From: a virus
Length of the DNA stretch: 32,840 nt
Direction: 5' to 3' (one strand)
UHGV virus genome: UHGV-0259093
Below, in pieces: positions 1 through 32,840 of the stretch. The position numbers and the translations under genes are program-made. The notes beneath the pieces are model-generated. The model worked only from the letters and a program-made list of their open reading frames with translations. It was not told where the DNA came from and ran no database searches. Positions within the stretch are counted from its first letter, which is position 1. Each line of letters begins with the position of its first letter.

Positions 1-514
<514 letters not shown>

Positions 515-516
515 AT

Positions 517-546
517 AAAAAAGCCCGTATTCGGCTACGGGCTTTT
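517..546. terminator. bidirectional rho-independent terminator between convergent genes
   Basis: Perfect 8-bp stem agcccgta (522-529) / tacgggct (536-543) with 6-nt loop, flanked by an A-run upstream and T-run downstream. Confidence 0.6.
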
Positions 547-548
547 AT

Positions 549-1289
549 TCATTTATTTGATTCGAAGATATCGAAAATTGATGAATCATTGATATTTAAA
601 TTCTCAAACTCATTGTGTAAATCTTCTTTTAGCCTGATGATTTCACTAGAAAGGTCATAAGCTATAGATACATGTGGATTGTCAGTCAAATTCCATGTTA
701 AATCCTCAAACTCTTTAACTTCATTGTCATTTATAGTAATACCCCAATAACCCATTATTATAGTTAGAAGGGTGATAAGTTCTGTTTGTTTAGAATTAAT
801 TTGTTCAAACTGCTTTAAGATTTTTGAAAAACTATCTTTATTATGAGGTTTAACACTCCATCCCAAAATTTTCAATTTACTATATTCGCTAATCAAATCT
901 CTATAGTTTTTTGAAGATAACCCTATTACACTATCAAAAGATTTAATAAGACCATGCATAACTTTAACTTGTGTAAAACGCACCGACTTTGTATCGATTA
1001 AACAACATAACCATCTATTAAATGTATTTTCTAATATTGTAATTGTGAATTGCTTTTGTGTATTAGGTAAATGTGTAGATAAAATATTTGAAGAATGTTC
1101 AATAGCTAATTCTTGAGTAGCATCTCTTTTCCAGTTTTTAGCAATCAAAAAACCTTTATATGCAACAAAAGCCATAAAAATATTTGCTATTGATGAAAGC
1201 CAGTCGGCAAGACTTCCAATATCAGAATGGGTTCCATATAAAATTAAAACTGATATAAAACCTAAAATCACATAAGGAATCTTTTTCAT
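549..1289 (-). CDS. two-TM membrane protein of unknown function, paralog A of the 26318-27028 protein
   Basis: N-terminal hydrophobic helix (YVILGFISVLILY), then DIGSLADWLSSIANIFMAFVAY, nearly identical to DLGSLADWISSVSAIGTLGVAWLAY in ORF 26318-27028. C-terminal ~170 aa soluble. Confidence 0.7.
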   Translation of the reverse strand: MKKIPYVILGFISVLILYGTHSDIGSLADWLSSIANIFMAFVAYKGFLIAKNWKRDATQELAIEHSSNILSTHLPNTQKQFTITILENTFNRWLCCLIDTKSVRFTQVKVMHGLIKSFDSVIGLSSKNYRDLISEYSKLKILGWSVKPHNKDSFSKILKQFEQINSKQTELITLLTIIMGYWGITINDNEVKEFEDLTWNLTDNPHVSIAYDLSSEIIRLKEDLHNEFENLNINDSSIFDIFESNK

Positions 1290-1963: not shown

Positions 1964-3466
<1,503 letters not shown>

Positions 3467-3468
3467 GA

Positions 3469-3498
3469 AAAGGGGCATTTTAAGCCCCTTTATTTTTT
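3469..3498 (+). terminator. rho-independent terminator after the endolysin
   Basis: Stem aaaggggc (3469-3476) / gccccttt (3484-3491), 7-nt loop, followed by a run of T. Confidence 0.6.
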
Positions 3499-3755
3499 TC
3501 AAGAATCGCTAATACGCGTTCTAATTTCACATCAACAATATGAATTTTAGAGCTTAGATCTTTAAGGCTACTCTCTAAATCATCTTGCCCTTTCTCCAGT
3601 CTCGCTACATCAGTTTTAACGTGTGTTAAATCTGATTCTAATTTAGCTAAACGAGAAGAAAGATCTTCTACATCGGCGGTTTTATCACGGAATATACTCC
3701 ATAAAAAACCACCTGCGGCAATTACCACCGCTGCGATACTCTCCCATCCTGTCAT
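3480..3755 (-). CDS. N-terminally membrane-anchored coiled-coil protein (holin or spanin-like candidate)
   Basis: 91 aa. IAAVVIAAGGFLWSIF hydrophobic helix, then heptad-like LAKLESDLTHVKTDVARLEKGQDDLESSLKDL. Last gene of the minus-strand tail operon. Confidence 0.45.
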   Translation of the reverse strand: MTGWESIAAVVIAAGGFLWSIFRDKTADVEDLSSRLAKLESDLTHVKTDVARLEKGQDDLESSLKDLSSKIHIVDVKLERVLAILEKNKGA

Positions 3756-3804
3756 TTATTATCCTTAATATAGTTATTGTAGTTACTATTATTTATTTTA
3801 GTTA

Positions 3805-4452
3805 CTAATAACCAGTAAATGAGGCTAACGCTATTTGTACTTGTGCTGAACCCATAGCCTGTGTATATGACATTTGATATCTATTTACATATTGAAGAGT
3901 GAAAGAAGTAGAGCTATTACGCTTAATCAAAATTCCAGAATAACCCGTTACCGTACCATCATCAGACACGTTACCCACACATTGAGAAATGCAAATCCAC
4001 GGATCAGCAAATGGTGATGTAACTGTAAGGGCTGTGCCTAAGTCGTGCCCTGCTGGAATAGTAAAGAAACCGCGTACACGTGGCATAGTACCAGCACTTG
4101 CCGCTGACCAGATAAGAGTACCAGCACTATTACGTACATCGAGATACCCAGAAGTTAAGGCCGCTGTATTGTTGGATAGCATAAAACGCCCTGTACCCGC
4201 TTCATAGAGCTGTGCACCGGGAAAGCAGTACCTACCATTACTTTGTAGTTGAAACCAGCGTAGGCCGTTTGCAGTGAAGAAATTAGCCCCTAAAAACCCT
4301 AGTGTAGAGCCATTACCAAAAGATGAGTTAATTAGATAGTACCCTGTATCGCTTAGAGTACCCATAGCTTTTACTTGAGATGATACCGTAGCTCTATTAT
4401 CTGAATCGATTGTTAATTTACCTGCATCATTATAACATTGAAAACCTGACAT
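3805..4452 (-). CDS. Gly/Ser/Thr-rich distal tail or receptor-binding-associated protein
   Basis: 215 aa. N-terminus MSGFQCYNDAGKLTIDSD is paralogous to the N-terminus of the upstream 97-aa protein. Location immediately downstream of the J-like gene. Confidence 0.5.
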   Translation of the reverse strand: MSGFQCYNDAGKLTIDSDNRATVSSQVKAMGTLSDTGYYLINSSFGNGSTLGFLGANFFTANGLRWFQLQSNGRYCFPGAQLYEAGTGRFMLSNNTAALTSGYLDVRNSAGTLIWSAASAGTMPRVRGFFTIPAGHDLGTALTVTSPFADPWICISQCVGNVSDDGTVTGYSGILIKRNSSTSFTLQYVNRYQMSYTQAMGSAQVQIALASFTGY

Positions 4453-4460
4453 ATATTCCT

Positions 4461-4754
4461 TTACTCAAAAGCATACAATTCAAACGATAGAGTACGTGCG
4501 GATATACCACCTGTGGGGGTATAGCGTACTGAAAAGCTATTAGTTTGAGGTACACAATAAAACTCACTAAAATTATTTGTTACTGGGATAATTAGCCAAC
4601 CTGTAGGACGTACACCCGTAAAATTAACTGTCCATACGTTTGTAGTACCTGCTGCAATTGCTAATGAAGCCGTACCCATAAAACGCATATTGTAATCACC
4701 TAGATCTACTACAAGCCTACCGGATGCATCCCAGCATTGTAGACCTTGTGCCAT
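4461..4754 (-). CDS. small tail-associated protein sharing an N-terminal motif with the 3805-4452 protein
   Basis: MAQGLQCWDASGRLVVDL versus MSGFQCYNDAGKLTIDSD in the next gene. Confidence 0.5.
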   Translation of the reverse strand: MAQGLQCWDASGRLVVDLGDYNMRFMGTASLAIAAGTTNVWTVNFTGVRPTGWLIIPVTNNFSEFYCVPQTNSFSVRYTPTGGISARTLSFELYAFE

Positions 4755-4980: not shown

Positions 4981-8671
<3,691 letters not shown>

Positions 8672-12844: not shown

Positions 12845-13303
12845 TTATTCTTTTGGTAGTAAACCAGATTCGATAGCTGCACCATCAACCGCTAGATTAA
12901 ACGATTTGGTAACTACTGCGTCTTTATCACCAGCGATAGTTGTAGAACTAACGAAACATGTATAGACAACATAGCAGCCTGTAGTTTCAGTAGCGTCTGT
13001 GTAGTAACTTAGACGAATCTGACAACGCTTCTGCTCATCTGCTAGTGTTTCTAGCAATTGGTGTGTCTCGTTATCTGGAAGATAGTTAACTTGTAGTTCA
13101 ATATCTGGAATTGATTTAGTACCTAATAGTTTACGGTTATAAGCACTATTGAATGTGACTACATCGATTACAACTGATTCAAAACCTGAAGTAGTGAAAG
13201 AGGCAACTTCTGGTACTTCTTTAAAGTCAGTAGCTAGGGTAGTACCCGCACTTGTACCTACTTCAACTTTTAAATTAGCACCTGAAAAGATATCCATTGG
13301 CAT
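12845..13303 (-). CDS. putative major tail tube protein
   Basis: 152 aa, positioned immediately upstream of the chaperone pair as in lambda V-G-GT-H order. About one third identical to the N-terminal ~150 aa of the 13370-16396 fiber. Confidence 0.45.
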   Translation of the reverse strand: MPMDIFSGANLKVEVGTSAGTTLATDFKEVPEVASFTTSGFESVVIDVVTFNSAYNRKLLGTKSIPDIELQVNYLPDNETHQLLETLADEQKRCQIRLSYYTDATETTGCYVVYTCFVSSTTIAGDKDAVVTKSFNLAVDGAAIESGLLPKE

Positions 13304-13369: not shown

Positions 13370-16300
13370 TTATTTATTCATTAGTTGTTGTACTAATGCT
13401 TTTAGTTCATCAATTTGTGATTGTTGATAATCATTATCTTTCTTCAATGATTGAACCGATCCCATTAAATCCATAACAATTGGGTTAACATCGATAGACG
13501 GTCTATCGCGTGTTAGTTGTTCTACTATGTTTCCTTCTTCATCAAGTACTTCATCATAGATTTCTGGATTGTGTTTCACATACTGAGGTGTGTTTATTTC
13601 TGACTCTTCGGCAATAATCCCAAAACGCTGGCGTTTTTGTTCATCATCTTTATAGACAAAATTAACCATTTTTTGAGATAAAATTCTTTCTAACGCTTCG
13701 TCGGTTTTTGCTTCTACAATATCTTCTTTATAGTCTCTACCGGATGTACCTTGTAAAGCCAATGCACCACCACCTAGCGGTAGTGAGATCCAATATTGTG
13801 GGCTTCCTGCTGCTGTGTAGGTCTGGAATCCGTAGTTGCCTACAGTTTCTGAAAAACCAGCACGGATACGTACAACACCATTTGATGCAAGATTACATGT
13901 ATAAGAGGCTGAACCGTTGGAACGTAGCATAATTGCATCAGTACCAGCACTTGAACCACCACACGTAACACGGTTGCTAGTTACATCGAATGTACCAGCA
14001 CATGTAGTATTACCTAATGCAGTAATAACACCGCCGAAATTCATGGTATTAGTAGTACGTGAATAGTTGAATAGAGCTACACCACCTGTATTATCACGGT
14101 TTAAACGGAATGATCCACCATCTGCTACAAATAGATATGTACTATCTGAGGAATCCGATTCTACAAATGATAAACATGGGTTTGTACTGGTAATAGTTAA
14201 TGGGTTTGACGCTGCGTTAGAGAATTTAGCAGTACCATTATTAGTTACGTTGATACCCGGCGTTGTAATTAGACTACTGAAATAAGAGCCACCATTACTA
14301 AAGGTCATTAAGCCCTGTCCAACGGTTGCGGAACCTTCACCAACATAGATACGTGCATCATAATCGTTTCCAGTACCGCTACTGTGAAAATCAATAAATG
14401 ATCCCGCCTTTGTTGTTGTACTGCCTAATTCAAAACCTACTGTACTTGTATTTAATGTACCAACCTGTAAGCCACCAGTTTTAATAGTTTGTGACCCGTT
14501 CCATTGGTTACCACCATCTAGCGTTGGGATAGTTACACCCAATTGATCATTCGTTAGGTATTCTTTCCATGCAGTCCACCCCGCCGTACCAGCTAATACA
14601 CGTCTCCATTTACGATTACTTGCGTAGGATGTATATTCTTGTACACAAGCCTGTGCGGTTCCTGCACCAGTTGGATATACGTATAAACCGCCAGCCTCGG
14701 CAATTGGGTATTTGTTAGCAGGGGTTGCACTTGCGTTTAGTGTTTGGTAATAGAATCCAGATTGAGCCGCACCCAATGTATCTAGGTTAACACTAGCGGC
14801 TAGTGCCGTCTGACTACGGTACATTGCCTGTAAATTATTACGGGCTGCATCTACACTATTTGCACCAGTACCGCCCTCTGTAATTGCAAGTTTATTCGTT
14901 AGTGTTAGTACACCATTGAAATGTAAACTTGCAGCCATAATATTCATTGAACCACTACCAGCCGCCGTAGTAGAACCGCCTGTAGATTGAATACGAGAAT
15001 CATAATCTACGGTACTACCGGAACTGTGAAAATCAATATAAGATGTACTAGCCGCTACTGTAGAGCCAATTTCAATACCGCCACCTGTGGAAGAATTAGC
15101 CGCAAATCTATTTTGATTGCCGTTAAATTGTTGGTTACCAGACCATGTATTTTCTGTACTTAATAGTGGGATTGTTGCACCAGAAGTACCAGTATTAATT
15201 ACTGCTGAAGTACCTAAGCCTAAGTTTGTACGTGCGTTAGCTACGTTAGTTAAATCAGATAGGTTACTTGCCTTAATAAGATACTTACCATCCATTGCAG
15301 TACTTGTAACGATACCTAAGTTTACTTGTGCCTGTGCAACGGTACTAGCACCTGTGCCACCGTTCGCCACTGGTACGATATCGAAAGTACCCGCCGCTTT
15401 AACGCCTAAGTTTGTACGTGCTTCTGCTGCCGTCTTAGCACCAGTACCGCCATTTGCTACCGTTAGAGCTTGACCTAAAGTTAATGATCCTGCACTTGCT
15501 ACGCCTAAAGTAGAAGTAGTGGTTTTAATACTTTCACCAGTGATTGCACCAGTTGCCTCTACATCTGCACCCGTAATTTTATTTGCAGAAATTAAGCTAT
15601 TGACTTTGACATTACCGGAAAATGTTTTATTCCCTGCAATAGTCTGATCACCAGTTAGAGCTACATACTTTGTATCACCTAGATTAGTTGTTAAAATACG
15701 TTGCCATGCGGTAGTCTGGTTTTTTGCATAGATTGCAAGTGAACCTGTTTTAGTCATTGCGATAGAACTAAAAGTAGTACCATCAATTAGACCTACACCC
15801 ATCATATCAGCACTGGCTGGATTACCCACTTGTGACGCTGGGATCTTGATAAAGCTGTTACCTAGTGGGCGTTCTGGTTGATACTGTGGTACATCACCAC
15901 CATTACTACCTACACCATAGGAACCTTCTACTAATGCTGCACTTGCTAACGCCGTACCATCACGTGTAATAACGTCTGTAGGTACAAAAGAATAGGTTTT
16001 CATTACTACGGTATCTTTATCACCAGATACGTTAGCTGATTGGATTTGACCATTAACCATTGAATAATTGATTAAACCATCTTCAATATTGTAGCGTAGT
16101 GTTAATTGAAATTCTTTTTGACTCTCGGTTGCAGCATCTAAGAAAGCATGTGTTTCATCATCTGGAATATAGTTAACAGTAATATCAATATTATCTACGT
16201 TTTGTTCTGCTGCTAGTTTAGATGAGTACTCACTATCGTATGTTTCAAGTGTTTGTATCTCACTTTCGATTCCAAATGACGGCATCGCTGCCAATTCGTT

Positions 16301-16396
16301 TATTTCTTCGTTGCCTGCATTATCGGGAATACGGTTAGCAGTATCATTATTATAGAATAACTTAAAGTTATTACCTGTAAAAATATCATTACTCAT
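13370..16396 (-). CDS. long side tail fiber with phage tail fiber repeats and C-terminal intramolecular chaperone (peptidase S74-type) domain
   Basis: Repeated ANGGTGAKTAAEARTNLG / ANGGTGASTVAQAQVNLG motifs. C-terminus GRDYKEDIVEAKTDEALERILSQKMVNFVYKDDEQKRQRFGIIAEE matches the auto-cleaving chaperone domain of endosialidase / L-shaped fibers. RBS aagga upstream. Confidence 0.8.
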   Translation of the reverse strand: MSNDIFTGNNFKLFYNNDTANRIPDNAGNEEINELAAMPSFGIESEIQTLETYDSEYSSKLAAEQNVDNIDITVNYIPDDETHAFLDAATESQKEFQLTLRYNIEDGLINYSMVNGQIQSANVSGDKDTVVMKTYSFVPTDVITRDGTALASAALVEGSYGVGSNGGDVPQYQPERPLGNSFIKIPASQVGNPASADMMGVGLIDGTTFSSIAMTKTGSLAIYAKNQTTAWQRILTTNLGDTKYVALTGDQTIAGNKTFSGNVKVNSLISANKITGADVEATGAITGESIKTTTSTLGVASAGSLTLGQALTVANGGTGAKTAAEARTNLGVKAAGTFDIVPVANGGTGASTVAQAQVNLGIVTSTAMDGKYLIKASNLSDLTNVANARTNLGLGTSAVINTGTSGATIPLLSTENTWSGNQQFNGNQNRFAANSSTGGGIEIGSTVAASTSYIDFHSSGSTVDYDSRIQSTGGSTTAAGSGSMNIMAASLHFNGVLTLTNKLAITEGGTGANSVDAARNNLQAMYRSQTALAASVNLDTLGAAQSGFYYQTLNASATPANKYPIAEAGGLYVYPTGAGTAQACVQEYTSYASNRKWRRVLAGTAGWTAWKEYLTNDQLGVTIPTLDGGNQWNGSQTIKTGGLQVGTLNTSTVGFELGSTTTKAGSFIDFHSSGTGNDYDARIYVGEGSATVGQGLMTFSNGGSYFSSLITTPGINVTNNGTAKFSNAASNPLTITSTNPCLSFVESDSSDSTYLFVADGGSFRLNRDNTGGVALFNYSRTTNTMNFGGVITALGNTTCAGTFDVTSNRVTCGGSSAGTDAIMLRSNGSASYTCNLASNGVVRIRAGFSETVGNYGFQTYTAAGSPQYWISLPLGGGALALQGTSGRDYKEDIVEAKTDEALERILSQKMVNFVYKDDEQKRQRFGIIAEESEINTPQYVKHNPEIYDEVLDEEGNIVEQLTRDRPSIDVNPIVMDLMGSVQSLKKDNDYQQSQIDELKALVQQLMNK

Positions 16397-20435: not shown

Positions 20436-20962
20436 TAACGCCCCCTATGAAATGTTGTAATAGATTTAATAGGGCTACCTGCGTTTAGTCCTTTCATATC
20501 TGAAATTAAATCGTTTGCCCTTTTAACATAGGTAGAACGTAGGCGTAGAAGTACTTCGCTTGATTCATAAGTTAGGGCTTTATTTTGTATTGATTGACTT
20601 AGTACACCACCACCTTTAATACGGTCTAGTGTAATTTGGTCAATATCTTTTATGATCTGAATTAGATCATTATATTCTGAGGCTTTACTAGTTGGATCAG
20701 TTACTTCAAATTGTTGTACACCGTATGCTTTAGGACTATCAATAATTGCAGTCCAGATACCCACGCCCCACGTATTAGTATCAATATCAGGGAATGGGTA
20801 AACATAGGAAGTTTTAACACCGTTAGGATCTATCAAATCGATATTAGTTCCTTCTGGATAGTTGAAAGTAATTGTTTCACCTTTGATAATATCGCCTTTT
20901 AAATCAACTTTGCGAACAATTGCCATTTGTTTTATTTCCTTATTTAAAGAATCCTCCACCAC
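20435..20962 (-). CDS. hypothetical head protein (occupies the gpW head-tail joining position between terminase and portal)
   Basis: 175-aa ORF; synteny only. Confidence 0.4.
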   Translation of the reverse strand: MVEDSLNKEIKQMAIVRKVDLKGDIIKGETITFNYPEGTNIDLIDPNGVKTSYVYPFPDIDTNTWGVGIWTAIIDSPKAYGVQQFEVTDPTSKASEYNDLIQIIKDIDQITLDRIKGGGVLSQSIQNKALTYESSEVLLRLRSTYVKRANDLISDMKGLNAGSPIKSITTFHRGR

Positions 20963-22868
20963 GTCTAGACGGACGTACTACACGACCTGTTTTTACTGGT
21001 GCTGGTTCTTCTTTATTTACTTCTTTATTTAGTCCTTTCTCTTTTTGTTTGGCGTTGAATTCGCGTAGTTTGCGGAATGGCTGATTACCTAATTTAGATA
21101 GATACCAGTGGAAACATATTAAAGCGTAGTTAAGACAATCAAGCGTTTCATTCCTTGCTGAACTAATTTTCTTAACCCATACCCACGCCCCAGCTTTAAT
21201 AACTCTCTTCTCACTTGATACCTGAATAAAGTAATCATCTGGTACTGAATGGCTGAAGTGTATTTGTACTTCACTACTATTACCACTATCCGATACTGCA
21301 CGGTTTAATAGTTGTCTAATATTACTTTTCCCTAAGTTTACGTTTAGGTTTATTAGACTATGACCACCAGCCGTAGAGCCTTTAAAGAGTGGGTTAGTAT
21401 TTGAAGTACCGCCCTTGATTGGTTTAAAGATTGTCGATGCACTACAATAGCGATATACCGTACTGGTTGCGTTACCGTTCGAACTATCTACAAAACCTGC
21501 AAGTACTTTAAGTGGTTTACCGGATACGGTTTTAAAGTTAGTTTGTGAAAATGCTGTTAGCTTATTCCATGCGGGAGCCTCTATTTTAGTACAGTCAATG
21601 CTATGAATACTGCGATGATCGAGTACATAAAGATTCTTTTCACTTATTCCTAACGTTGTTACTTCAAGGCGGTCTAACTGTTGGTCTACACCTAGTACGA
21701 TTCCTTGACAGTCATCCGGCACGGTATCTATATCTATTGAACTATCACGTAGGTTTTCAAGTAATACTAAATCATGATCGGTATTCTCTTTATCAATATA
21801 AGGAAGTCCTAAGACGTTATTGTAGAATGAGGCTAGATCAAATGTATAATGTGCTTCGGCAAAATCCTGTACTATTGATTTGATCGAGTTAATCGGGGAG
21901 TATAAACGGCTAATATGATACCCCATGATATCCGTTACTTCTGGTACTGTAGCTATCCATTCACCCTTACGTACCATTCTTACACGTTCGGCTTCTGTGA
22001 TTACATTATTACACTTAGGACATTGTAGTTTTGCTGTCTCTGCATCTGGAATGCGACGACGACCACCATCAATAATTTTCCAGTCGAATTTAACATTTTC
22101 AAATACTAATTCATGTGCATGATCACAATGTGGGCAAGGTACGTAGAACTTCTGTTTATTACTTTGCTCGTACTGCTGAGTGATTAAATCATTCTCATCA
22201 AGTGGTGTAGAACAAACCATAATAAGAGGGTTGCTAAAAGCCTTTGTACGCTGTTCTGCTAGCTTTAGTGGGTTCCCTTCATCACCATCTGCATCTACGT
22301 TAGATATTTCGTCAAGAAAGATACGGGGGGCTGTCAAGCCTCGCAAATTCGCACTACTACCCAATGTTAGGAAGTACGTAAAAGTACCGTCTAAGTTTTG
22401 TTGTGTCTTATCATTATTAGTATAGTTTTTATCATTCTTATTACTGACTAGATTTTTAAGTACTGCACATGCTTCGATTACTGATTGCCATTTACCAGTA
22501 CGAAACTTACTAGTAGTGCTGGCTGTTGCACCTGCGAAAATTAGATTGCTTGGATCATTTGCGAGGAAGTAGTACATACTATTCTGTAAAACTGTTGTTT
22601 TGAGAAGTTGTGCACTGCTCATCAAAACTATTTTTCTAATTCTTGGATTAGTAATGTCATTTATGGGCTTGTGCTGAAAGGAAAATAACTTTACGCGTTG
22701 TCCTTGTAGTTCCCCATCCGGGAATACTAAATTATTCTCTACCCATTCCGCTGGTAGTTGTCGCTTCGGAGGTAGGATCGACTTCGCCGCCCTCGTTAGT
22801 ACCTTCATCATCTTCTGGTAGTTGTTCATCCGTGTATGTTCCTTCATATTCATAGCTACCAATTTCAT
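20940..22868 (-). CDS. terminase large subunit, GpA family
   Basis: 642 aa. PCPHCDHAHELVF, GVDQQLDRLEVTTLG and ARNETLDCLNYALI parallel lambda gpA ACPHCGEEQYLKF, GIDSQLDRYEMRVWG and RRNEALDCFVYALA. Several in-frame Met near the N-terminus, so the true start may be later than 22868. Confidence 0.9.
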   Translation of the reverse strand: MKLVAMNMKEHTRMNNYQKMMKVLTRAAKSILPPKRQLPAEWVENNLVFPDGELQGQRVKLFSFQHKPINDITNPRIRKIVLMSSAQLLKTTVLQNSMYYFLANDPSNLIFAGATASTTSKFRTGKWQSVIEACAVLKNLVSNKNDKNYTNNDKTQQNLDGTFTYFLTLGSSANLRGLTAPRIFLDEISNVDADGDEGNPLKLAEQRTKAFSNPLIMVCSTPLDENDLITQQYEQSNKQKFYVPCPHCDHAHELVFENVKFDWKIIDGGRRRIPDAETAKLQCPKCNNVITEAERVRMVRKGEWIATVPEVTDIMGYHISRLYSPINSIKSIVQDFAEAHYTFDLASFYNNVLGLPYIDKENTDHDLVLLENLRDSSIDIDTVPDDCQGIVLGVDQQLDRLEVTTLGISEKNLYVLDHRSIHSIDCTKIEAPAWNKLTAFSQTNFKTVSGKPLKVLAGFVDSSNGNATSTVYRYCSASTIFKPIKGGTSNTNPLFKGSTAGGHSLINLNVNLGKSNIRQLLNRAVSDSGNSSEVQIHFSHSVPDDYFIQVSSEKRVIKAGAWVWVKKISSARNETLDCLNYALICFHWYLSKLGNQPFRKLREFNAKQKEKGLNKEVNKEEPAPVKTGRVVRPSRRGGGFFK

Positions 22869-23463
22869 TTAATTGATCATCTATTTTTTCCTGTAGTTTG
22901 ATTTTTAATTCTAATGCGTCTGCTGATTCGAATAATTCAACATAACTTGACGCGGGAATACTTCTTAATACTTGGCGTAGTTGGTAGAAGTATTGGGATA
23001 AAGTTTGCTGTACTACTGCTACTGGTATTAGCTCGCCGGATTGCTGACGTAATTCCATTTCTTTAATATCAGCTTCTGCTTCTAACTTACGTAGTGTTGC
23101 TTTTTGTATTTGGCCTTTTGTATCACCGCTTCTTAGTGGTTCGATTACGTTTGCAAGTAACCAATCGTCAACTAATTTCTTAGGCCAGGTGATATCTAAA
23201 CCTTTACCAGACCATATACGGCTAACAGTAGAATGCTCTACGCCGAAACGATCCGCGATTTCTTGCCACGTGTAGCGGGTTCCATCGTCTTTAATTTTTG
23301 CCATTTTGTTTAGTCCTTGTTTAGTACAATAAACCTGTACTTTCCTTTTATTTCGTTTTGTTTGTTTTCGATTAGAAATCCCACGAATTTTAAATACAAT
23401 TCGCGGCGAAAACTCGATTTTTTTGTTCTCAATTAGAGAACCTAAAGTTAAAACTTCACTCAC
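22732..23463 (-). CDS. terminase small subunit with HTH; likely true start at ATG 23304 (MAKIKDD...)
   Basis: YTWQEIADRFGVEHSTVSRIW helix-turn-helix, acidic C-terminus, directly upstream of the large terminase. The track start at 23463 is a GTG. aagga RBS precedes the internal ATG. Confidence 0.65.
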   Translation of the reverse strand: MSEVLTLGSLIENKKIEFSPRIVFKIRGISNRKQTKRNKRKVQVYCTKQGLNKMAKIKDDGTRYTWQEIADRFGVEHSTVSRIWSGKGLDITWPKKLVDDWLLANVIEPLRSGDTKGQIQKATLRKLEAEADIKEMELRQQSGELIPVAVVQQTLSQYFYQLRQVLRSIPASSYVELFESADALELKIKLQEKIDDQLNEIGSYEYEGTYTDEQLPEDDEGTNEGGEVDPTSEATTTSGMGRE

Positions 23464-23533: not shown

Positions 23534-24472
23534 ATGAAACACATAATCCAAACCAGAAGTGTTTTTAAGGATATCGAAGACTCTTTATTTAGTGAGTTGC
23601 ATTCAGCTAAGACAAGTATCAAAATCTGTGTTGCATGGATAAACTTTGAGCTTTTTGAAAATATATTATTATCTAAGGCTAAAGAAGGTGTTGAAGTTGA
23701 GATATTAGTTAATAATGATTATATCAATACAAAATTTCTTGATAAAATATCTGATAATATAAAACCATTAATTAATCTAATTAAAAACCCTATTAGTAAC
23801 CACTTAATGCATCATAAATTTTGTATCATTGATGATGAAGTTTTGATTACTGGCAGTTATAATTGGTCAAAAAGAGCACCATATCATTATGAAAATATAA
23901 TAATCATCCGTAATGATTTCAATCTAATAATGCAATTTAAACATGAGTTTGCAGATTTAAAATACATGGGTGCAATGCCAAGTACAGAATTTAATGCATT
24001 TAAAGTAACCAAAAATCTCAATAGATTTGTTGTTGGCACATATAGTTCATCTGTGGGGATATATGAAACCGTCACATTGCAGTTATGGGAAATTGATATT
24101 AACAACTTAACTTTTGAACGACATGGCGAAATGGATATCCCTTTCTTCAATTATTTATTAGATATTAATACTGATGATCATTATCTTATTGATGAAAAAG
24201 AAAGGTACATCGATCTATATGATCAAGAGCGTAGACAGATGGAGACTATCCAAAGTCATTTTAGAAGATTAAATTGTTCAATTCATGCTTATGGAACAGC
24301 AATAATAGCGAACGAGAGCGAATACCTTGAAGGTTATGAAGAGCCTATTCGTGTAATTCACTTCAATTGGATAGATATGCGATTAAGCAAAGTATTACCC
24401 TCTTCTTTGCCCGCAACTATGGAACTTGAAGGATTATGGCACGAAATATATGCTCCAAATGGATATATTTAA
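23534..24472 (+). CDS. phospholipase D-family (single HKD motif, Nuc-like) nuclease with an uncharacterised ~160-aa C-terminal domain
   Basis: HHKFCIIDDEVLITGSYNWSKRA is a canonical HxK(x4)D(x6)GSxN motif. RBS aagga 6 nt before the ATG. Markedly AT-rich. Confidence 0.75.
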   Translation: MKHIIQTRSVFKDIEDSLFSELHSAKTSIKICVAWINFELFENILLSKAKEGVEVEILVNNDYINTKFLDKISDNIKPLINLIKNPISNHLMHHKFCIIDDEVLITGSYNWSKRAPYHYENIIIIRNDFNLIMQFKHEFADLKYMGAMPSTEFNAFKVTKNLNRFVVGTYSSSVGIYETVTLQLWEIDINNLTFERHGEMDIPFFNYLLDINTDDHYLIDEKERYIDLYDQERRQMETIQSHFRRLNCSIHAYGTAIIANESEYLEGYEEPIRVIHFNWIDMRLSKVLPSSLPATMELEGLWHEIYAPNGYI

Positions 24473-24489
24473 ATAATATTCTATAATTA

Positions 24490-24864
24490 ATGAGGAACGG
24501 TATTATGTCTAATTATCCTATACCACTTAGCCTTGAATTTAATAGTCAAGATACTGCTAATATCATTTGTAGTTATCTAGAAAAAAATCATCAAGATTCT
24601 ATTTTAAAAACCATATTAAATATAGATTTGTCTTTTATTGATTATCGTGCACAATCTTCTAATTACTTTATAATTAATGACGTTGAATATATTGGAGATA
24701 ATAATTATATTTTATATTATAAAATAAACTACTACATTTATAATCTCTGTAAAGATATGGATATTGATGATGACTACGAGACTTCGATAAATTTTACATT
24801 GAATAATGGATTTTTAGTATTTGATATAATTGATTGTGAAAGAAATATATCAGATGAAATATAG
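24490..24864 (+). CDS. small acidic protein, partner of the PLD nuclease; likely start at ATG 24505
   Basis: RBS gagga 8 nt upstream of the second ATG (MSNYPIPL...). Asp/Glu-rich (DMDIDDDYETS, DIIDCERNISDEI). 32-nt gap after the PLD gene. Confidence 0.55.
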   Translation: MRNGIMSNYPIPLSLEFNSQDTANIICSYLEKNHQDSILKTILNIDLSFIDYRAQSSNYFIINDVEYIGDNNYILYYKINYYIYNLCKDMDIDDDYETSINFTLNNGFLVFDIIDCERNISDEI

Positions 24865-24967: not shown

Positions 24968-25387
24968 TTATAATTGATTCAATCGATAGATATTAGATGT
25001 ACTTGAGCCATCGCTATACACCTCTGATATAGTCAGTTTGTTTCCATCCACTTTGTATTTTACTACACTATCAGCCGGATCATTTCTCCAACGACCTGAG
25101 CTATCTGGATTGTTTGATGCCCACATAACTTGATCATCAATCAGTTTGCACTTGATAGCCCATCTTGTGCTGTCATCTTTACGTATGTAATGGACATAGG
25201 CTACATCAGATTGAATCTTATCAAGCTTCATTATTTTATGATCTCGCCCAAACATAGATGCAGCCGCCGCTTTGCAGATCTGACCAACATTAGCTTCCGC
25301 TGCGTAGAGTGAAGAACTGAACAATAATGGCACAATCACTAATAACTTTATCATCGCATATCGTCTCGTAGTAAAAATTAATTTCAC
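24968..25387 (-). CDS. secreted or periplasmic protein of unknown function
   Basis: Signal-peptide-like N-terminus (MIKLLVIVPLLFSSSLYAAEA). Start 2 nt after the stop of the HNH endonuclease gene, implying co-transcription. Confidence 0.55.
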   Translation of the reverse strand: MKLIFTTRRYAMIKLLVIVPLLFSSSLYAAEANVGQICKAAAASMFGRDHKIMKLDKIQSDVAYVHYIRKDDSTRWAIKCKLIDDQVMWASNNPDSSGRWRNDPADSVVKYKVDGNKLTISEVYSDGSSTSNIYRLNQL

Positions 25388-25388
25388 C

Positions 25389-26114
25389 TTATTTCCTTAA
25401 TAACTTTTTTAATTCCTCAACTGTCTTCATTTCTTTTCCAATATGAATCATTGCATGACAGTTTGCACATAAAGGTATAAGATCTTCAATTGGGTCAATC
25501 TTATAGCGTTTACCAATAGTATGTAGTGGCACTATATGATGAACATGAATATAATTTTTTCCGTGACTTCCATACACTTCTTCAAAATTAAAACCACAGA
25601 CACCACAACTCAAACCATGTTTATCGATACATTCTTTTCTAGCCTTTGGATCTCTCTCATAGTACGTAGCAATCCTTTGATGCTTTTCACCTTCATAGTA
25701 TTCACTTTCTATTTCAGGTGTGAATGAATAGTAATCTTCATCGGTGGCATACCAATCTCCATCTTTTTTAGTAAGATATTTTCGTACTATTTTCTTTTCA
25801 AAATGTTTAATCCTAGCAGCACCATTTTCAGTTGTTTTCTCATGCCTAGTCTGGCTAAAGGTGAAAAGACTATACCCTTCATGTAAAATTTTATCTATGT
25901 GTTCGATAGATTGTGTATAACCATTTTTTTTGTGTCCATTTACATTTTCACGCCAACTGCTAGCCAAGATTAAAACTTTCTTACCATCATCTGATCTAAG
26001 ATCTTCCCAAGCTCCAAAAATTATTTTTTTGTTGATCTCATCAATAAATGACCAACTCCAGTTATCATTTTTACATGTAGCACCCAAAGAACGCATGAAC
26101 TCTGTTCGGGACAT
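25389..26114 (-). CDS. HNH-family endonuclease of restriction type (COG3183-like) with an uncharacterised N-terminal domain
   Basis: C-terminus ERDPKARKECIDKHGLSCGVCGF...IHVHHIVPL...DLIPLCANCHAMIH carries the Cys pair and His/Asn-type HNH motif of predicted HNH restriction endonucleases. Confidence 0.75.
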   Translation of the reverse strand: MSRTEFMRSLGATCKNDNWSWSFIDEINKKIIFGAWEDLRSDDGKKVLILASSWRENVNGHKKNGYTQSIEHIDKILHEGYSLFTFSQTRHEKTTENGAARIKHFEKKIVRKYLTKKDGDWYATDEDYYSFTPEIESEYYEGEKHQRIATYYERDPKARKECIDKHGLSCGVCGFNFEEVYGSHGKNYIHVHHIVPLHTIGKRYKIDPIEDLIPLCANCHAMIHIGKEMKTVEELKKLLRK

Positions 26115-26151: not shown

Positions 26152-26232
26152 ACTATCGACTGTAGGAGGTTTCTATCCTTCGTAAAGCTAACAAACCTAC
26201 CCAAAGTAGATAGAAACCTCCTACAATCGATA
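26152..26232. repeat. 25-bp inverted repeat (24/25 match) with 31-bp spacer in a divergent intergenic region
   Basis: ctatcgactgtaggaggtttctatc (26152-26176) versus gatagaaacctcctacaatcgatag (26208-26232). Each arm contains aggagg. Confidence 0.6.
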
Positions 26233-26317
26233 GTGTATGTGTGTTCCTTTTGATGGTAAAGTATTAATATAGTGTTACCTAGACTGGGTGTACATATAAT
26301 CAATATTTGGGTTTGAT

Positions 26318-27028
26318 ATGCTTAATCTCACTAAATGTAATTTACTTTTGATCGGCACTGTAATAACTCTATTACTGATAGCTATTCTTGTAGGTATAAA
26401 AATACTATTCTCCGATTCTAATCCAGATCTAGGCAGCTTAGCAGATTGGATCAGTTCTGTATCCGCAATAGGGACTCTTGGTGTTGCCTGGTTAGCTTAT
26501 AGTAAAGCTGATGACTACATTGACAAAAAAGCTTCGGAAAGAGGAATTGATATCCTTGTCAATATGGTAACTGAATCATTCGTTGCTTATTTCAACTCAC
26601 TAAATGAAACTAATTTCCATGCTTCAAAACTTGAAAATAAAATGATATTGATTGGCTTGGTTGATGAAAAAGTAGATTGCAATATTGAACTACAATCATT
26701 AAGAGAAAAAATCATAACTCTCTTCGAAAATAGTCATCAAATAGACAAAGATTTTATAAAAATGAAAATAATGAAAATATCAAAACCCAGTGATATTTTC
26801 TACGATCCAGTAACTAGCGATGATACATTGCAAGCGTTAAAATTAGCATTTCATAAACTGAACACTGAAATTTGTGAGAATGAAAATCAATACAACATTA
26901 ATAATGATTTACTTAGCGAAAATATCAACTTTATTAAAAACACTACCGAAAAGTTAGCCCATGATATTCGCAAACAGTTCTTTACCTCGCCGAATACTTA
27001 TAAAGATTATTTTGGAAATCTGTCTTAA
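26318..27028 (+). CDS. two-TM membrane protein of unknown function, paralog B of the 549-1289 protein
   Basis: N-terminal helix LLLIGTVITLLLIAILVGI followed by DLGSLADWISSVSAIGTLGVAWLAY. Perfect TATAAT at 26294-26299 upstream. Confidence 0.7.
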   Translation: MLNLTKCNLLLIGTVITLLLIAILVGIKILFSDSNPDLGSLADWISSVSAIGTLGVAWLAYSKADDYIDKKASERGIDILVNMVTESFVAYFNSLNETNFHASKLENKMILIGLVDEKVDCNIELQSLREKIITLFENSHQIDKDFIKMKIMKISKPSDIFYDPVTSDDTLQALKLAFHKLNTEICENENQYNINNDLLSENINFIKNTTEKLAHDIRKQFFTSPNTYKDYFGNLS

Positions 27029-27073
27029 ATTATACGCTATCAAATATTCCATCAACATAAACAAGGAAAGTAG

Positions 27074-27772
27074 ATGACTACTCTCACTAGAACTTATAAT
27101 TTACCAAATGAGCTAGTTGAACATTTTTCAAATAACATTGTCTATTTCGAAAAACTTTTGTCTAAGGATTTTTCTGACTTAAATGTTAATGTAGCACCAG
27201 AAGACATTAAGAAAATAGAAAAATCTTTCGAAGTATCACATAGAATACGTGATTTCGAAATCAATCTGTATTGGCAAAGACTGAACTTCCTTTGGGCCAT
27301 TACAGCATTGCTATTTGCTGGATGGGGAACATTGATCTTTAAAATCATCGAATTCAATGGAGGGGAAGCACCTTATATTATATTTGCCGCCTTATCATTT
27401 CTCTCACTTATAGGTGGGATTGTAACTATATTCACAAGCTTTATCATTGAGGCAGGTAAGCATTGGCAAAAGGTTTGGGAGTTTCATGTTCACGCTCTTG
27501 AACCTTTTGTATCAGGTCATTTATATGCAATTCAGTTTTCTTATAAAAATAAAAAAAAGGCATCTATAAGTAGAAGCGTAGAAACTTTCAATTATGCTTT
27601 GCTGTTTCTTTGGGCATGTTCAGCAGTATTCGCCGCAATCATCCCTTCACAAATAGGGAACGGTCTTGCAGGCATTATCCAATTAGTTATTTCTCTTCTT
27701 ATAGTTGGTGCTTTTGTTTATATACGCAACTCTGTTACTAAAAAGGAGTCTATTAAAATTCAGCTTGATTAA
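27074..27772 (+). CDS. four-TM integral membrane protein of unknown function
   Basis: Hydrophobic segments FLWAITALLFAGWGTLIF, YIIFAALSFLSLIGGIVTIFTSFII, FNYALLFLWACSAVFAAII, GIIQLVISLLIVGAFVYI. Follows paralog B by 45 nt. Confidence 0.65.
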   Translation: MTTLTRTYNLPNELVEHFSNNIVYFEKLLSKDFSDLNVNVAPEDIKKIEKSFEVSHRIRDFEINLYWQRLNFLWAITALLFAGWGTLIFKIIEFNGGEAPYIIFAALSFLSLIGGIVTIFTSFIIEAGKHWQKVWEFHVHALEPFVSGHLYAIQFSYKNKKKASISRSVETFNYALLFLWACSAVFAAIIPSQIGNGLAGIIQLVISLLIVGAFVYIRNSVTKKESIKIQLD

Positions 27773-27792: not shown

Positions 27793-28002
27793 TTAAGCAG
27801 CCCCATAATGGGGCTTTCTTTTTTTAGCATTTACTTTTTGAATGCTCATAAGAATCTCACGTACCTTTGCTTCATTATCACCTGCATCATATAGTACCCC
27901 ATCTTTCCAGTACTGACCCAGTAGTTCTACTTTTGGTAAGCCCGGCATTGCCCTTACTCCATCTTCGTGATCAATATGTAATTCAAGTGATCCAATAATC
28001 AT
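27793..28002 (-). CDS. small hypothetical protein
   Basis: 69-aa ORF overlapping the next gene by 4 nt. 3' end overlaps a plus-strand terminator hairpin, which lowers confidence. Confidence 0.35.
   Translation of the reverse strand: MIIGSLELHIDHEDGVRAMPGLPKVELLGQYWKDGVLYDAGDNEAKVREILMSIQKVNAKKRKPHYGAA
27799..27825 (+). terminator. rho-independent terminator after the membrane-protein pair
   Basis: Stem agcccca (27799-27805) / tggggct (27809-27815), 3-nt loop, then ttcttttttt. Confidence 0.6.
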
Positions 28003-30941: not shown

Positions 30942-32840
30942 CTAGATCTGGTCTATCCGATAACGCTCTATGAACTCTTTACGTGTTAAACCAGTCGATT
31001 CTAATGCAGTGGCTATATCCTTTGGAACTCGACCATTCAAGGCAATACTATATGTATTGCCTTCATACACAATGTCTACTCGATCATACTTTCCGGTATT
31101 AGGCCAGAATGAAGCCCCACTTATTTCACTATAACCAACCACTTCTAACATCTCATTAGCAGTATTGAACAGATCTAAATAACTTTGTTCAATTTTATCA
31201 AGTTGTTCCACTGCTTTATTAAATAATGGCAGATTGCTAGTGGTAAGAAATCCTTCATCTCTGATACTTACATTATCAACAGAAGAAAATTCAACTTTAA
31301 ACGCCCAATGTGGTTTTCTATCAGTTCCACCAAAAACTAACCATTCATCTTTAAAATGATACTTTATTTTTATCGTTATACACCCATCAGTTTTATCAAC
31401 TATAACACTTTCAATAATAGAACTAATTACTTTCCTTATTTTATTTCTATCCGTATCCTGCATATTTGTAAAAACCGCCCACTGAATAAGAATCATAAAT
31501 TCATTTATATCGACTTCTAGAGATCCTTTACCTTTCAGTGAATATAAGCGTTCTTTTAACTTATCAACTTCCAGAACAGTCTTTTTACGTTCCATATCAA
31601 ACGCATTTAGTTGAACTGCTAACGCACTAACATTAGGAGCAATTGCTATTGCTTGAGCCATGTTTGTTATGCGAGATTCCAGATCAGTTATCAACGTTTC
31701 TTTTCTACTGAGGTCTTCTTCTATCACAGTTGTGTCAATACCATCTTTTAGTCTCTTATTCATGTAACCGATCAGTAGTGAAATGATCGTACAGTGTTCA
31801 ACTAATTGTGCTGATATAGACCAGCCAGAACAGTTTTTTTGTAAGTGAACCCCATTAGTACAAATATAGCGAGCACTGCCATGATTCATGAAAGAATGCA
31901 TAGTTCCTCCACACTTGCTACACCGTAACACCTGCAACCCTGATAACAATTTAATTTCTTCTACTTTGTCTTTCTTAGCCTTGAAGTTGTTTTGCTGCTT
32001 ACGTTCAGCCAAGGTTAAATACTCTGCTTCATCTTTGCATAACCATGGATAGTAGTTATCAAGTTTGTAAGTAGCACCACCAGCATTGATAGTCCTTTCA
32101 CCAATCAACGCCCGATTATCACGCATCTTTTTCAATACCTGATAATCCCATTCTTTACCCTTTAAACCATTAGGATATTTTTTATCGAGATGACGCTTTA
32201 CTGTATAGATGCCATTCCCATCTAAAAACATGTCTATAGCTTCGCGAGCGATACTCCAGTAAACGGGATGTTCTTTTACTGCTTCATATTGCGAACCTGA
32301 ATCATCTATCCAAAATGGATGGCGACCAACTGACTTAATGTTTACTGGCAACCCTGCTTTATGACGTTCGACCAAGGCAACAACATTGCCTATGGTCCTG
32401 TTAGATTTCGTTTCTGATTCTTCATTGCCACGGATAAACATCAGAATAGAAATCATCAGATCAGTAGGGTTTTGTCTGATGGATTCTCTGTTATAGACCT
32501 TCCGATCCATTCCTGTGACAATCGTTAGCCCTAAACCAATCAATTCAAGGAATAAACGAAGTGCTTCATCCACCTGATCGCGTGATAGTCGGTCGAGGTT
32601 TTCACAGTAAAGCCAAGAGTCAGACGGTATAGCATTATTTTTTACGGCGTCTATGAAGTCACCCAACTTACCCGCCCTATTTTTTCCCCTGTAAGCACTC
32701 GTGCCAGGTTCCAAAATTTCAACCATTTCAAGCCCCGCTTCTTCAGCATAGGCTTTCGCTGCCGCTACCTGCCTGTTCTTGGTTGTTCCTTTTTCTTGGC
32801 GATCACTTGACCACCTGATATAGCTATAAAGTTGCGGCAT
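30942..32840 (-). CDS. large serine recombinase (phage integrase type)
   Basis: N-terminal YIRWSSDRQ with catalytic Ser and LDRLSRD typical of the resolvase domain. 632 aa, Cys-rich zinc-ribbon-like segment (CSKCGG...CTNG). ATG is the last three bases of the window. Confidence 0.9.
   Translation of the reverse strand: MPQLYSYIRWSSDRQEKGTTKNRQVAAAKAYAEEAGLEMVEILEPGTSAYRGKNRAGKLGDFIDAVKNNAIPSDSWLYCENLDRLSRDQVDEALRLFLELIGLGLTIVTGMDRKVYNRESIRQNPTDLMISILMFIRGNEESETKSNRTIGNVVALVERHKAGLPVNIKSVGRHPFWIDDSGSQYEAVKEHPVYWSIAREAIDMFLDGNGIYTVKRHLDKKYPNGLKGKEWDYQVLKKMRDNRALIGERTINAGGATYKLDNYYPWLCKDEAEYLTLAERKQQNNFKAKKDKVEEIKLLSGLQVLRCSKCGGTMHSFMNHGSARYICTNGVHLQKNCSGWSISAQLVEHCTIISLLIGYMNKRLKDGIDTTVIEEDLSRKETLITDLESRITNMAQAIAIAPNVSALAVQLNAFDMERKKTVLEVDKLKERLYSLKGKGSLEVDINEFMILIQWAVFTNMQDTDRNKIRKVISSIIESVIVDKTDGCITIKIKYHFKDEWLVFGGTDRKPHWAFKVEFSSVDNVSIRDEGFLTTSNLPLFNKAVEQLDKIEQSYLDLFNTANEMLEVVGYSEISGASFWPNTGKYDRVDIVYEGNTYSIALNGRVPKDIATALESTGLTRKEFIERYRIDQI

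What the first reader, a model, noticed from the sequence alone, without database searches (positions are those of the whole stretch)
26318..27772. Two-TM protein plus four-TM protein operon; the two-TM protein is duplicated at the other end of the phage
Paralog B (26318-27028) and paralog A (549-1289, opposite strand, ~25 kb away) share an N-terminal helix, a near-identical D-x-G-S-L-A-D-W-x-S-S motif and a second hydrophobic segment, then diverge in their ~170-aa soluble C-terminal domains. B is followed by a four-TM protein and a strong terminator. Two diverged copies of a membrane-anchored protein with variable soluble domains resembles exclusion or abortive-infection factors, but this is inference only.
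Basis: partly seen in the sequence, partly recalled or inferred. Interest (0 to 1): 0.65.

Follow-up and report, generated by a model that had tools for sequence, protein, structure and literature searches.

The report
Prophage membrane sensor family with 8xMP partner
Two distant copies of an undescribed, fast-diverging membrane-anchored protein sit at both accessory-gene sites of an enterobacterial prophage, one in an operon with an "8xMP/RipA-type" four-helix membrane protein; this is most likely a new phage-defence module, but no function has been tested.

Summary
Genes B (26318-27028, +) and A (549-1289, -) are real but distant paralogs. Only the N-terminal ~45-60 residues align (BLASTP E 5e-6). 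A profile built without A's group still retrieves A (E 7e-24).

They belong to an undescribed family of about 190 clusters, all in Enterobacterales, mostly in related ~30 kb serine-integrase prophages. There is no Pfam, PHROG, PADLOC or NCBIfam model for it. The family has a conserved membrane hairpin with the signature E-[WLF]-G-S-x-[ST]-D-W-x-S and a stripe of small residues on TM2. This is joined to a hypervariable cytoplasmic four-helix bundle (AF2 pLDDT 91).

The downstream four-TM gene is Pfam PF24838 "8xMP", which sources name "RipA family octameric membrane protein".

Family members lie next to 8xMP in 8 of 34 independently fetched contigs. They are fused to it in two diverged natural proteins. 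They usually occur in tandem arrays of 2-4 genes in one prophage hotspot.

8xMP relatives also pair with a DUF2971 (Aristaios-like) protein or a GTPase, and one sits inside a type I R-M operon.

Best reading (about 0.45): a lysogen-expressed sensor plus membrane-effector defence module. Function is inferred, not shown.

The parts
26318..27028 (+). Gene B, 236 aa. Layout: cytoplasmic N-tail, TM1 (aa ~8-31), short acidic periplasmic loop carrying the signature, TM2 (aa 44-61, rich in small residues), cytoplasmic four-helix bundle (aa ~62-236).
   Evidence: ORF and translation. Family HMM E 7.6e-47. AF2 pLDDT 90.8, helices 4-30, 38-114, 122-151, 164-187, 196-222. Charge statistics over 150 family representatives support N-in/C-in topology.
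26426..26458 (+). Family signature in B (D37-L-G-S-L-A-D-W-I-S-S47).
   Evidence: Column counts over 150 representatives: G39 134/145, D43 146/150, W44 130/150, S46 128/150.
27074..27772 (+). Four-TM membrane protein of Pfam PF24838 (8xMP). Sources name close relatives 'RipA family octameric membrane protein'. AGGA Shine-Dalgarno 6-7 nt upstream.
   Evidence: Pfam 61.1 bits against a cut-off of 30, E 1.3e-16. Names from sources. Hydropathy peaks at 74-92, 102-120, 172-190, 197-215. AF2 model pLDDT 70. Invariant residues lie in the pre-TM1 helix and the TM2-TM3 cytoplasmic segment.
27799..27825 (+). Intrinsic terminator closing the B-8xMP unit. It overlaps the 3' end of the convergent minus-strand ORF 27793-28002.
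   Evidence: Terminator scan: AGCCCCATAATGGGGCT followed by TTCTTTTTTT.
26295..26300 (+). Perfect TATAAT, 17 nt before the ATG of B. Candidate -10 element only, with no good -35.
   Evidence: Read directly from the sequence. The consensus scan did not list it. Unverified.
549..1289 (-). Gene A, 246 aa, a distant paralog of B. It is the last gene of the late-gene strand, about 1.5 kb from the prophage-host junction on the bssR side.
   Evidence: ORF and translation. Family HMM E 1.7e-44. Retrieved at E 6.8e-24 by a profile that excludes its own group. Position relative to host genes in L071.
1191..1223 (-). Family signature in A (D23-I-G-S-L-A-D-W-L-S-S33).
519..546 (.). Bidirectional hairpin terminator just downstream of A's stop codon.
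   Evidence: Terminator scan: 11-bp stem with A-run and T-run flanks.

Best explanation
B and the 8xMP protein form a lysogen-expressed, membrane-embedded accessory module of the prophage, most likely an anti-phage system of the abortive-infection or exclusion type.

Proposed working (inferred):
- The conserved hairpin of B docks on the oligomeric 8xMP ring, probably 1:1. The hairpin comprises TM1, the periplasmic E-x-G-S-x-[ST]-D-W loop and TM2, whose small-residue face runs through positions 46-50-53-57-60-64-67-71.
- The hypervariable cytoplasmic four-helix bundle of B acts as the specificity or sensor domain for a component of an infecting phage.
- Sensing changes the state of the 8xMP assembly, for example by opening a pore or leak, and this stops the infection.
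- Paralog A is a second sensor of the same family with a different C-domain, kept at the other accessory site. It either works on its own, as most family members appear to, or uses the same 8xMP in trans.

Shown: family membership, topology statistics, conserved anchor versus variable domain, genomic linkage and fusion with 8xMP, hotspot location, operon signals.

Inferred: physical contact, sensing, pore activity, any phenotype.
For: 1. Linkage of B-type genes with 8xMP.
- The pair is conserved at 53% (B) and 70% (8xMP) identity in L010.
- 8xMP lies within 4 kb in 8 of 34 unique contigs fetched with B-family seeds only: L025, L029, L046, L049, L055, L059, L064, L069.
- Two natural fusions carry a full 8xMP followed by a full B-type protein: Serratia plymuthica WP_212559562.1 and L055:3278-4615. 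They are 67% identical over residues 1-327, after which the C-domains cannot be aligned.
- The fusion order fits the predicted topologies: 8xMP C-terminus in, B N-terminus in.

2. Conserved anchor, variable domain. N-modules are detectable by BLASTP in 7546 of 9045 pairs, C-domains in 594 of 9045. The signature and small-residue stripe are conserved.

3. Accessory-gene behaviour.
- There are 1-4 tandem copies in the same hotspot, beside TerS and the HNH gene on the side towards the integrase, in related prophages. 19 of 34 contigs hold two or more copies.
- B-8xMP is on the strand opposite to both flanking gene blocks and has its own terminator.
- A is at the prophage end next to bssR.

4. Defence context of 8xMP.
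- In Enterobacter prophages it follows a DUF2971 protein by 46 nt. A lactococcal DUF2971 protein is the validated Abi system Aristaios (PMC11381338).
- It follows a GTPase in L018/L019.
- A distant homolog sits inside a type I R-M operon, hsdR-hsdM-[8xMP]-GIY-YIG-hsdS-AAA, on Sphingobium pKN1.
- Another follows an HNH nuclease on a B. thuringiensis plasmid.
- Another lies near RelA/SpoT and YfbU genes on a Raoultella plasmid.

5. The window's own hotspot also holds a PLD-family nuclease and an HNH protein with PADLOC hits to MkoC/DpdK/DrmC and mREase_IV.
Against: - No experiment supports any function, and no hit to any PADLOC, Pfam or NCBIfam defence model was found for A, B or (in PADLOC) 8xMP.
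- 26 of the 34 B-seeded contigs show no 8xMP within the fetched 4 kb flanks, and A has none nearby. The family can evidently work without an adjacent 8xMP.
- The function of 8xMP itself is unknown to me. I could not trace the source of the name 'RipA' or of 'octameric' (ten paper searches). No solved relative was found.
- Hotspots also collect non-defence morons, so neighbourhood evidence is only suggestive.
- The promoter of B is not identified.
Confidence: 0.45

Rival explanations
1. B-family proteins are self-sufficient prophage morons. For example, they could be superinfection-exclusion proteins acting at the inner membrane, or single-protein Abi factors whose own hairpin damages the membrane. 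In this reading 8xMP is a separate defence gene that merely shares the hotspot.
For: Most B-seeded contigs (26 of 34) and paralog A lack an 8xMP within the flanks. Family members often occur as long-form plus short-form pairs without 8xMP. 8xMP also occurs with unrelated partners or alone.
Against: Two diverged natural fusions of 8xMP with a complete B-type protein exist. Intergenic gaps are short, about 18-45 nt, with an SD before 8xMP. Co-occurrence is far higher than expected for a rare family: the 8xMP seed patterns confirmed only 7 loci in 2.9 million viral contigs.
Confidence: 0.25
2. A membrane toxin with a partner (antitoxin or regulator) that stabilises the prophage or acts as an addiction module. 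8xMP would be the toxic pore and B its inhibitor, with no role in sensing phages.
For: The layout is a two-gene operon with the variable gene first and the conserved membrane protein second. 8xMP is widespread on plasmids and other mobile elements.
Against: An antitoxin would not be expected to be hypervariable, to be amplified to four copies around one toxin gene, or to be common without the toxin. 8xMP occurs alone in L004 and L016.
Confidence: 0.1
3. Lysis-timing proteins of the phage itself, holin- or antiholin-like.
For: A lies directly downstream of a 97-aa holin-like ORF on the late strand. The proteins have two TM helices, and TM2 is rich in small residues, as in some holins.
Against: No holin family is matched in Pfam or PHROGs. 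At 200-280 aa with a large cytoplasmic bundle they are atypical for holins. B is transcribed against the phage operons and has its own terminator. The hypervariability and 1-4 copy arrays are unlike lysis genes. No homolog was found in 50,697 isolated phage genomes.
Confidence: 0.07
4. Chance similarity, or a generic signal-anchor motif with no common origin.
For: The pairwise alignment is short (62 residues, E 5e-6).
Against: The family profile search is specific: 193 hits in 1.84 billion representatives, and the listed hits share one architecture. Retrieval of A by a profile that excludes its group is strong, and no other window ORF is hit. The ordered signature is conserved across 150 representatives.
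Confidence: 0.01

Closest known systems
Pfam PF24838 '8xMP' / 'RipA family octameric membrane protein' (name given by NCBI and UniRef)
   Same: The downstream gene 27074-27772 is a clear member: 61 bits against a cut-off of 30. All 22 relatives also match.
   Different: The family carries a name but, as far as I could find, no described function. Its pairing with the B family has not been described in any library I could search.
Lambda RexA/RexB (from my own knowledge: prophage-encoded Abi with a cytoplasmic sensor, RexA, activating a four-TM membrane protein, RexB, that depolarises the cell)
   Same: A prophage-expressed two-gene unit of a sensor-like protein plus a four-TM inner-membrane protein. 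The proposed logic is the same.
   Different: No sequence relationship was detected; there is no PADLOC or Pfam hit. The sensor here is itself membrane-anchored, hypervariable and multi-copy.
SLATT 2TM effector domains of conflict systems (Pfam PF18160 SLATT_5; from my own knowledge, Burroughs et al. 2015)
   Same: A helical membrane effector paired with variable upstream partners on mobile elements. There is a weak SLATT_5 hit over TM1-TM2 of 8xMP.
   Different: The hit is below threshold (14.4 bits against 29.5) and is seen in only 3 of 22 relatives. No nucleotide-signalling enzyme is nearby.
Aristaios (lactococcal DUF2971 single-gene Abi system, PMC11381338)
   Same: In Enterobacter prophages a DUF2971 protein occupies the position of B, directly upstream of a 63%-identical 8xMP.
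   Different: It is not present in this window, and B is unrelated to DUF2971. Aristaios was shown to act as a single gene without an 8xMP.
SieB / Sie-type prophage exclusion proteins (from my own knowledge: N-terminal TM helices plus a soluble domain)
   Same: The architecture and prophage origin are similar, and variable soluble parts are a shared feature.
   Different: No Pfam SieB match for A, B or 72 family members.
Four-helix-bundle sensor domains of chemoreceptors and histidine kinases (Tar, Tsr, 4k0d)
   Same: These are the best Foldseek matches for B's soluble domain, with the same up-down four-helix bundle continuing from a TM helix.
   Different: E-values of 0.08-0.5 are not significant, and there is no Pfam 4HB_MCP hit. 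Here the bundle is predicted to be cytoplasmic and C-terminal.

Membership tests
Pfam PF24838 8xMP (four-TM gene 27074-27772) | Score above the curated gathering threshold of the family HMM | tested here: met
   61.1 bits against 30, profile positions 3-134 of 136. All 22 aligned relatives match.
Pfam PF24838 8xMP | Octameric assembly in the membrane | not testable with these tools
   Only monomer prediction was available. No solved relative was found by sequence or by fold.
SLATT 2TM effectors (PF18160 and relatives) | Score above the gathering threshold | tested here: not met
   14.4 bits against 29.5. SLATT_5 is hit in 3 of 22 relatives and Saf_2TM in 1 of 22.
Known defence systems in PADLOC-DB v2 (this rests on my assumption, not checked, that it holds Rex, Kiwa, Zorya and Abi models) | Any component HMM match for A, B or 8xMP | tested here: not met
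   No hit at E<=0.1 for the three proteins. Only scattered single hits among 72 family members.
SieB / holin / other Pfam or PHROG membrane families (for A and B) | HMM match | tested here: not met
   No Pfam or PHROG family for B. A has only two weak PHROG hits (phrog_1773 at E 0.0014, phrog_25664 at E 0.03). No family is shared by more than 2 of 72 members.
New 'B family' (membrane hairpin with E-x-G-S-x-[ST]-D-W-x-S signature plus variable four-helix bundle) | Signature and TM2 small-residue stripe, 200-280 aa, matched by the family profile | tested here: met
   Both A and B match.
Abortive-infection or exclusion systems in the functional sense | Reduced phage propagation when expressed; cell death or blocked entry on infection | not testable with these tools
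   Requires plaque, growth and membrane-potential assays.

The most novel reading that the evidence does not exclude
A new kind of modular membrane immune complex. An oligomeric 8xMP ring would serve as a shared effector, gated 1:1 by interchangeable membrane-anchored receptors whose cytoplasmic four-helix bundles diversify rapidly. One prophage could then carry a small repertoire of sensors feeding one pore: here B in cis and A in trans, 25 kb away, and up to four copies elsewhere. DUF2971 and GTPase partners would be alternative inputs to the same effector.
Probability: 0.2. Interest if true: 0.75.

Novelty: new variant of a known kind. Interest (0 to 1): 0.55.

Why it matters
If the reading is right, it adds three things:
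- A previously unnamed protein family of about 190 clusters in Enterobacter, Escherichia, Klebsiella, Citrobacter, Serratia and relatives.
- A first functional context for the Pfam-only 8xMP/RipA-type membrane proteins.
- A clear example of a conserved membrane docking module carrying a hypervariable sensor domain.

It would also give a testable case of several paralogous sensors sharing one membrane effector. The hotspot in this prophage family (beside TerS and the HNH gene, on the side towards the integrase) would be marked as a place to mine further systems.

If the reading is wrong, the family is still a well-defined set of prophage accessory membrane proteins of unknown role.

Tried and rejected
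- **Origin of the name 'RipA' / '8xMP'.** Ten paper searches found nothing relevant. Most hits were to RIPA buffer, mycobacterial RipA or Francisella RipA. A Francisella RipA paper says nothing on oligomers, so I make no claim that it is the same family.
- **Foldseek of the B model.** Only non-significant four-helix-bundle sensor domains were found.
- **Near-identical DNA.** There is none in 50,697 phage genomes. In complete E. coli genomes only the HNH gene matches, at 75%.
- **tblastn against isolated phages.** No match for B or 8xMP.
- **tblastn of B against plasmids.** No match.
- **SLATT relationship.** Below threshold.
- **Locus search with the full 72-sequence alignment.** It failed because the alignment has no conserved stretch long enough to search with, so three sub-alignments were used instead.
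- **Genome-contig scan.** It found only 4 close relatives of 8xMP.

Full report
**1. Setting**

The window is a siphovirus-type prophage of about 32 kb. On the minus strand it carries:
- a large serine integrase (30942-32840);
- small early genes;
- TerS (22732-23463) and TerL (20940-22868);
- portal and capsid genes;
- a tape measure protein (9914-12097) and a gpJ-like tip protein (4981-8283);
- a holin-like ORF (1350-1643).

The 8xMP gene is 100% identical, and its flanking genes 95-100% identical, to Pseudocitrobacter faecalis DSM 27453. Close relatives in E. coli lie between rimO and bssR, with the integrase next to rimO and gene A about 1.5 kb from bssR. Neither the DNA nor proteins B and 8xMP have a match in 50,697 isolated phage genomes.

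**2. The observation**

B (26318-27028, +), the four-TM gene (27074-27772, +) and A (549-1289, -) exist as described. B and A share the motif D-[LI]-G-S-L-A-D-W-[IL]-S-S followed by a hydrophobic helix.
- Pairwise BLASTP gives E 5e-6 over 62 residues. The C-terminal domains do not align.
- Profile-profile comparison gives 88% probability over 42 columns.
- A profile seeded on B and trained without A and its three closest relatives finds A at E 6.8e-24. No other window ORF is hit.

The paralogy is therefore real but ancient. The terminator after the four-TM gene (27799-27815 plus a T-run) is confirmed. The 45-nt gap carries an AGGA ribosome-binding site. A also ends at a hairpin terminator, 519-546.

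**3. The family behind A and B**

An exhaustive HMMER search with a profile of A, B and their five close relatives against 1.84 billion representatives returned 193 proteins at E<=1e-3 and 45 at E<=1e-10. The ten clusters I looked up hold only proteins named 'hypothetical' (apart from the fusion described in section 4, which UniRef names after its 8xMP half). They come from Enterobacter, Escherichia, Citrobacter, Klebsiella and Serratia. No Pfam, PHROG, PADLOC or NCBIfam model covers the family.

Over 150 representatives the ordered signature is E-[WLF]-G-S-x-[ST]-D-W-[IVLF]-S. Counts are G39 134/145, D43 146/150 and W44 130/150.

After the signature, one helical face is conserved: S46, [SAGC]49, [TN]50, [TM]53, A57 (149/150), A60, A64, W67 and K71. 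The 3-4 residue spacing of these mostly small residues is what a helix-packing interface looks like.

Charge statistics fit an N-in, loop-out, C-in topology:

| Segment | mean K+R | mean D+E |
|---|---|---|
| N-terminal tail | 1.78 | 0.32 |
| Loop | 0.78 | 2.26 |
| After TM2 | 3.27 | 2.07 |

Of the 150 representatives, 133 have TM1. The other 17 start at the signature and have only the second helix.

The N-terminal module is detectable by BLASTP in 83% of pairs, the C-terminal domain in 6.6%. AlphaFold2 with a 72-sequence alignment models B at pLDDT 90.8 and pTM 0.74. TM2 continues into the first helix of a four-helix bundle. The best PDB matches are Tar/Tsr-type four-helix sensor domains, but they are not significant.

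**4. The partner gene and the linkage**

The four-TM protein matches Pfam PF24838 '8xMP' at 61 bits against a cut-off of 30. NCBI and UniRef name close relatives 'RipA family octameric membrane protein'. Its invariant residues lie in the amphipathic helix before TM1 and in the cytoplasmic segment after TM2, G-K-H-W-Q-x-V-W-E-x-H...L-E-P-F-x-S-G.

Evidence for linkage with the B family:
- The pair is kept in L010 at 53% (B) and 70% (8xMP) identity.
- Of 34 unique contigs fetched with B-family seeds alone, 8 carry an 8xMP gene within 4 kb.
- In Erwinia (L020/L039), four B-type genes flank one 8xMP gene.
- Two natural proteins fuse a complete 8xMP to a complete B-type protein. They are 67% identical over the first 327 residues, and their C-domains are then unalignable. 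The fusion has therefore been kept while the sensor-like domain was exchanged.

The link is not obligatory. 26 of the 34 contigs, and paralog A itself, have no 8xMP nearby.

**5. Context**

The B-family genes occupy one hotspot in related prophages. It lies beside TerS and an HNH gene, on the side towards the integrase. 19 of 34 contigs carry two or more copies, often a long two-TM form directly followed by a short one-TM form.

8xMP relatives keep the downstream position while the upstream partner changes:
- a DUF2971 protein, 46 nt upstream, in lambda-like Enterobacter prophages;
- a GTPase;
- a 183-190 aa TM protein;
- no obvious partner.

A lactococcal DUF2971 protein is the validated Abi system Aristaios (PMC11381338).

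Distant 8xMP homologs are also found in defence-like settings:
- inside a type I R-M operon on a Sphingobium plasmid;
- after an HNH nuclease in B. thuringiensis;
- near RelA/SpoT and YfbU genes in Raoultella.

In the window the same hotspot holds a PLD-family nuclease and an HNH protein with weak PADLOC hits.

**6. Interpretation**

The pattern is the usual signature of prophage-borne anti-phage genes under an arms race:
- lysogen-type transcription units at both accessory sites;
- a conserved docking module joined to a hypervariable domain;
- copy-number expansion;
- a conserved membrane protein that accepts different upstream partners;
- defence neighbours.

I commit to a sensor (B, A) plus membrane-effector (8xMP) model with confidence of about 0.45. 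Contact, sensing and pore activity are all inferred.

The main rival is that B-type proteins act alone and 8xMP is only a neighbour (0.25). The fusions argue against it; the many 8xMP-less loci argue for it. Addiction-module (0.1) and lysis-timing (0.07) readings fit less well. Chance similarity is excluded.

**7. Comparison and novelty**

By function, the closest analogues are lambda RexAB-type sensor plus four-TM modules and SLATT-type membrane effectors. Membership in either was tested and not met. The 8xMP gene is a member of a named but, as far as I could find, functionally undescribed Pfam family. The B family is unnamed. I rate this a new variant of a known kind, of moderate interest (0.55).

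**8. Limits**

- No phenotype data exist.
- The promoter of B is not located.
- Only 4 kb flanks were examined.
- The meaning of 'RipA' and the basis of 'octameric' could not be traced (section 'tried and rejected').
- Oligomer modelling was not available.

Noticed in passing
window 23534-24472 (+), 24490-24864 (+), 24968-25387 (-), 25389-26114 (-): The same hotspot holds a PLD-family nuclease (PLDc_2 E 5e-20; weak PADLOC hits to MkoC, DpdK and DrmC). It also holds two small unknown ORFs and an HNH protein whose best PADLOC hit is a type IV methyl-directed restriction enzyme model. These may be further defence candidates, or the HNH may serve terminase.
   Followed up: partly
window 26152-26177 / 26209-26234: A 26-nt inverted repeat, 96% complementary with a 31-nt spacer, lies between the HNH gene and B. 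It is unique in the window. In the E. coli relative L008 an IS (DDE transposase) is inserted in this same intergenic region. It could be an operator, a terminator or a recombination site.
   Followed up: partly
window 1-256; L071 7034-7747: The ORF at 77-256 (-) is the N-terminal 46 residues of a 237-aa protein that is intact in L071 and carries GxGxL and NPPF motifs. I read this as an N6-adenine DNA methyltransferase, from my own knowledge of the motifs; it was not scanned. In the window it is cut off at about position 117 by DNA whose first 76 bases read like the end of an IS3-type transposase gene.
   Followed up: partly
window 3014-3466 (+), hairpin 3461-3499: The lysozyme gene lies on the strand opposite to all its late-gene neighbours and has its own hairpin terminator. 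The same inversion is present in L071, but not in the more distant relative L009.
   Followed up: partly
L001-L003 and L037, 5106-6708 / 3106-4708: A DUF2971 (Aristaios-like) gene plus a 63%-identical 8xMP gene form a two-gene insert between the tape measure gene and the minor tail gene of lambda-like Enterobacter prophages. In L003 the insert sits beside nSTAND, DndB-like and KAP NTPase genes.
   Followed up: partly
L010 9555-10535, L013 801-1781, L036 4794-5774: A second, longer 8xMP paralog (326 aa, about 26% identity) directly follows the first 8xMP gene in some relatives. In L010 and L036 a 183-190 aa single-TM helical protein that is not hit by the B-family profile lies upstream.
   Followed up: no
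L020 3397-7242; L038 2254-3755; L065 3188-6140: B-family genes come in two forms: a long two-TM form (WGSxSDW) and a short one-TM form (Y-D-x-[TS]-G-[TN]-x-A-D-W). The short form usually follows the long one directly or with a 4-nt overlap, which suggests heteromeric pairs. L065 has four copies and no 8xMP.
   Followed up: partly
window 12845-13303 (-) and 13370-16396 (-): Both ORFs match the N-terminal part of the same major-tail-protein PHROG (phrog_158). The 1008-aa one continues into tail-fibre-like domains. This may be a duplicated or extended major tail protein.
   Followed up: no
whole window: No recognisable replication module was seen among the ORFs I scanned, and the element has no relative among isolated phages. 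Whether it is an inducible phage is open.
   Followed up: no
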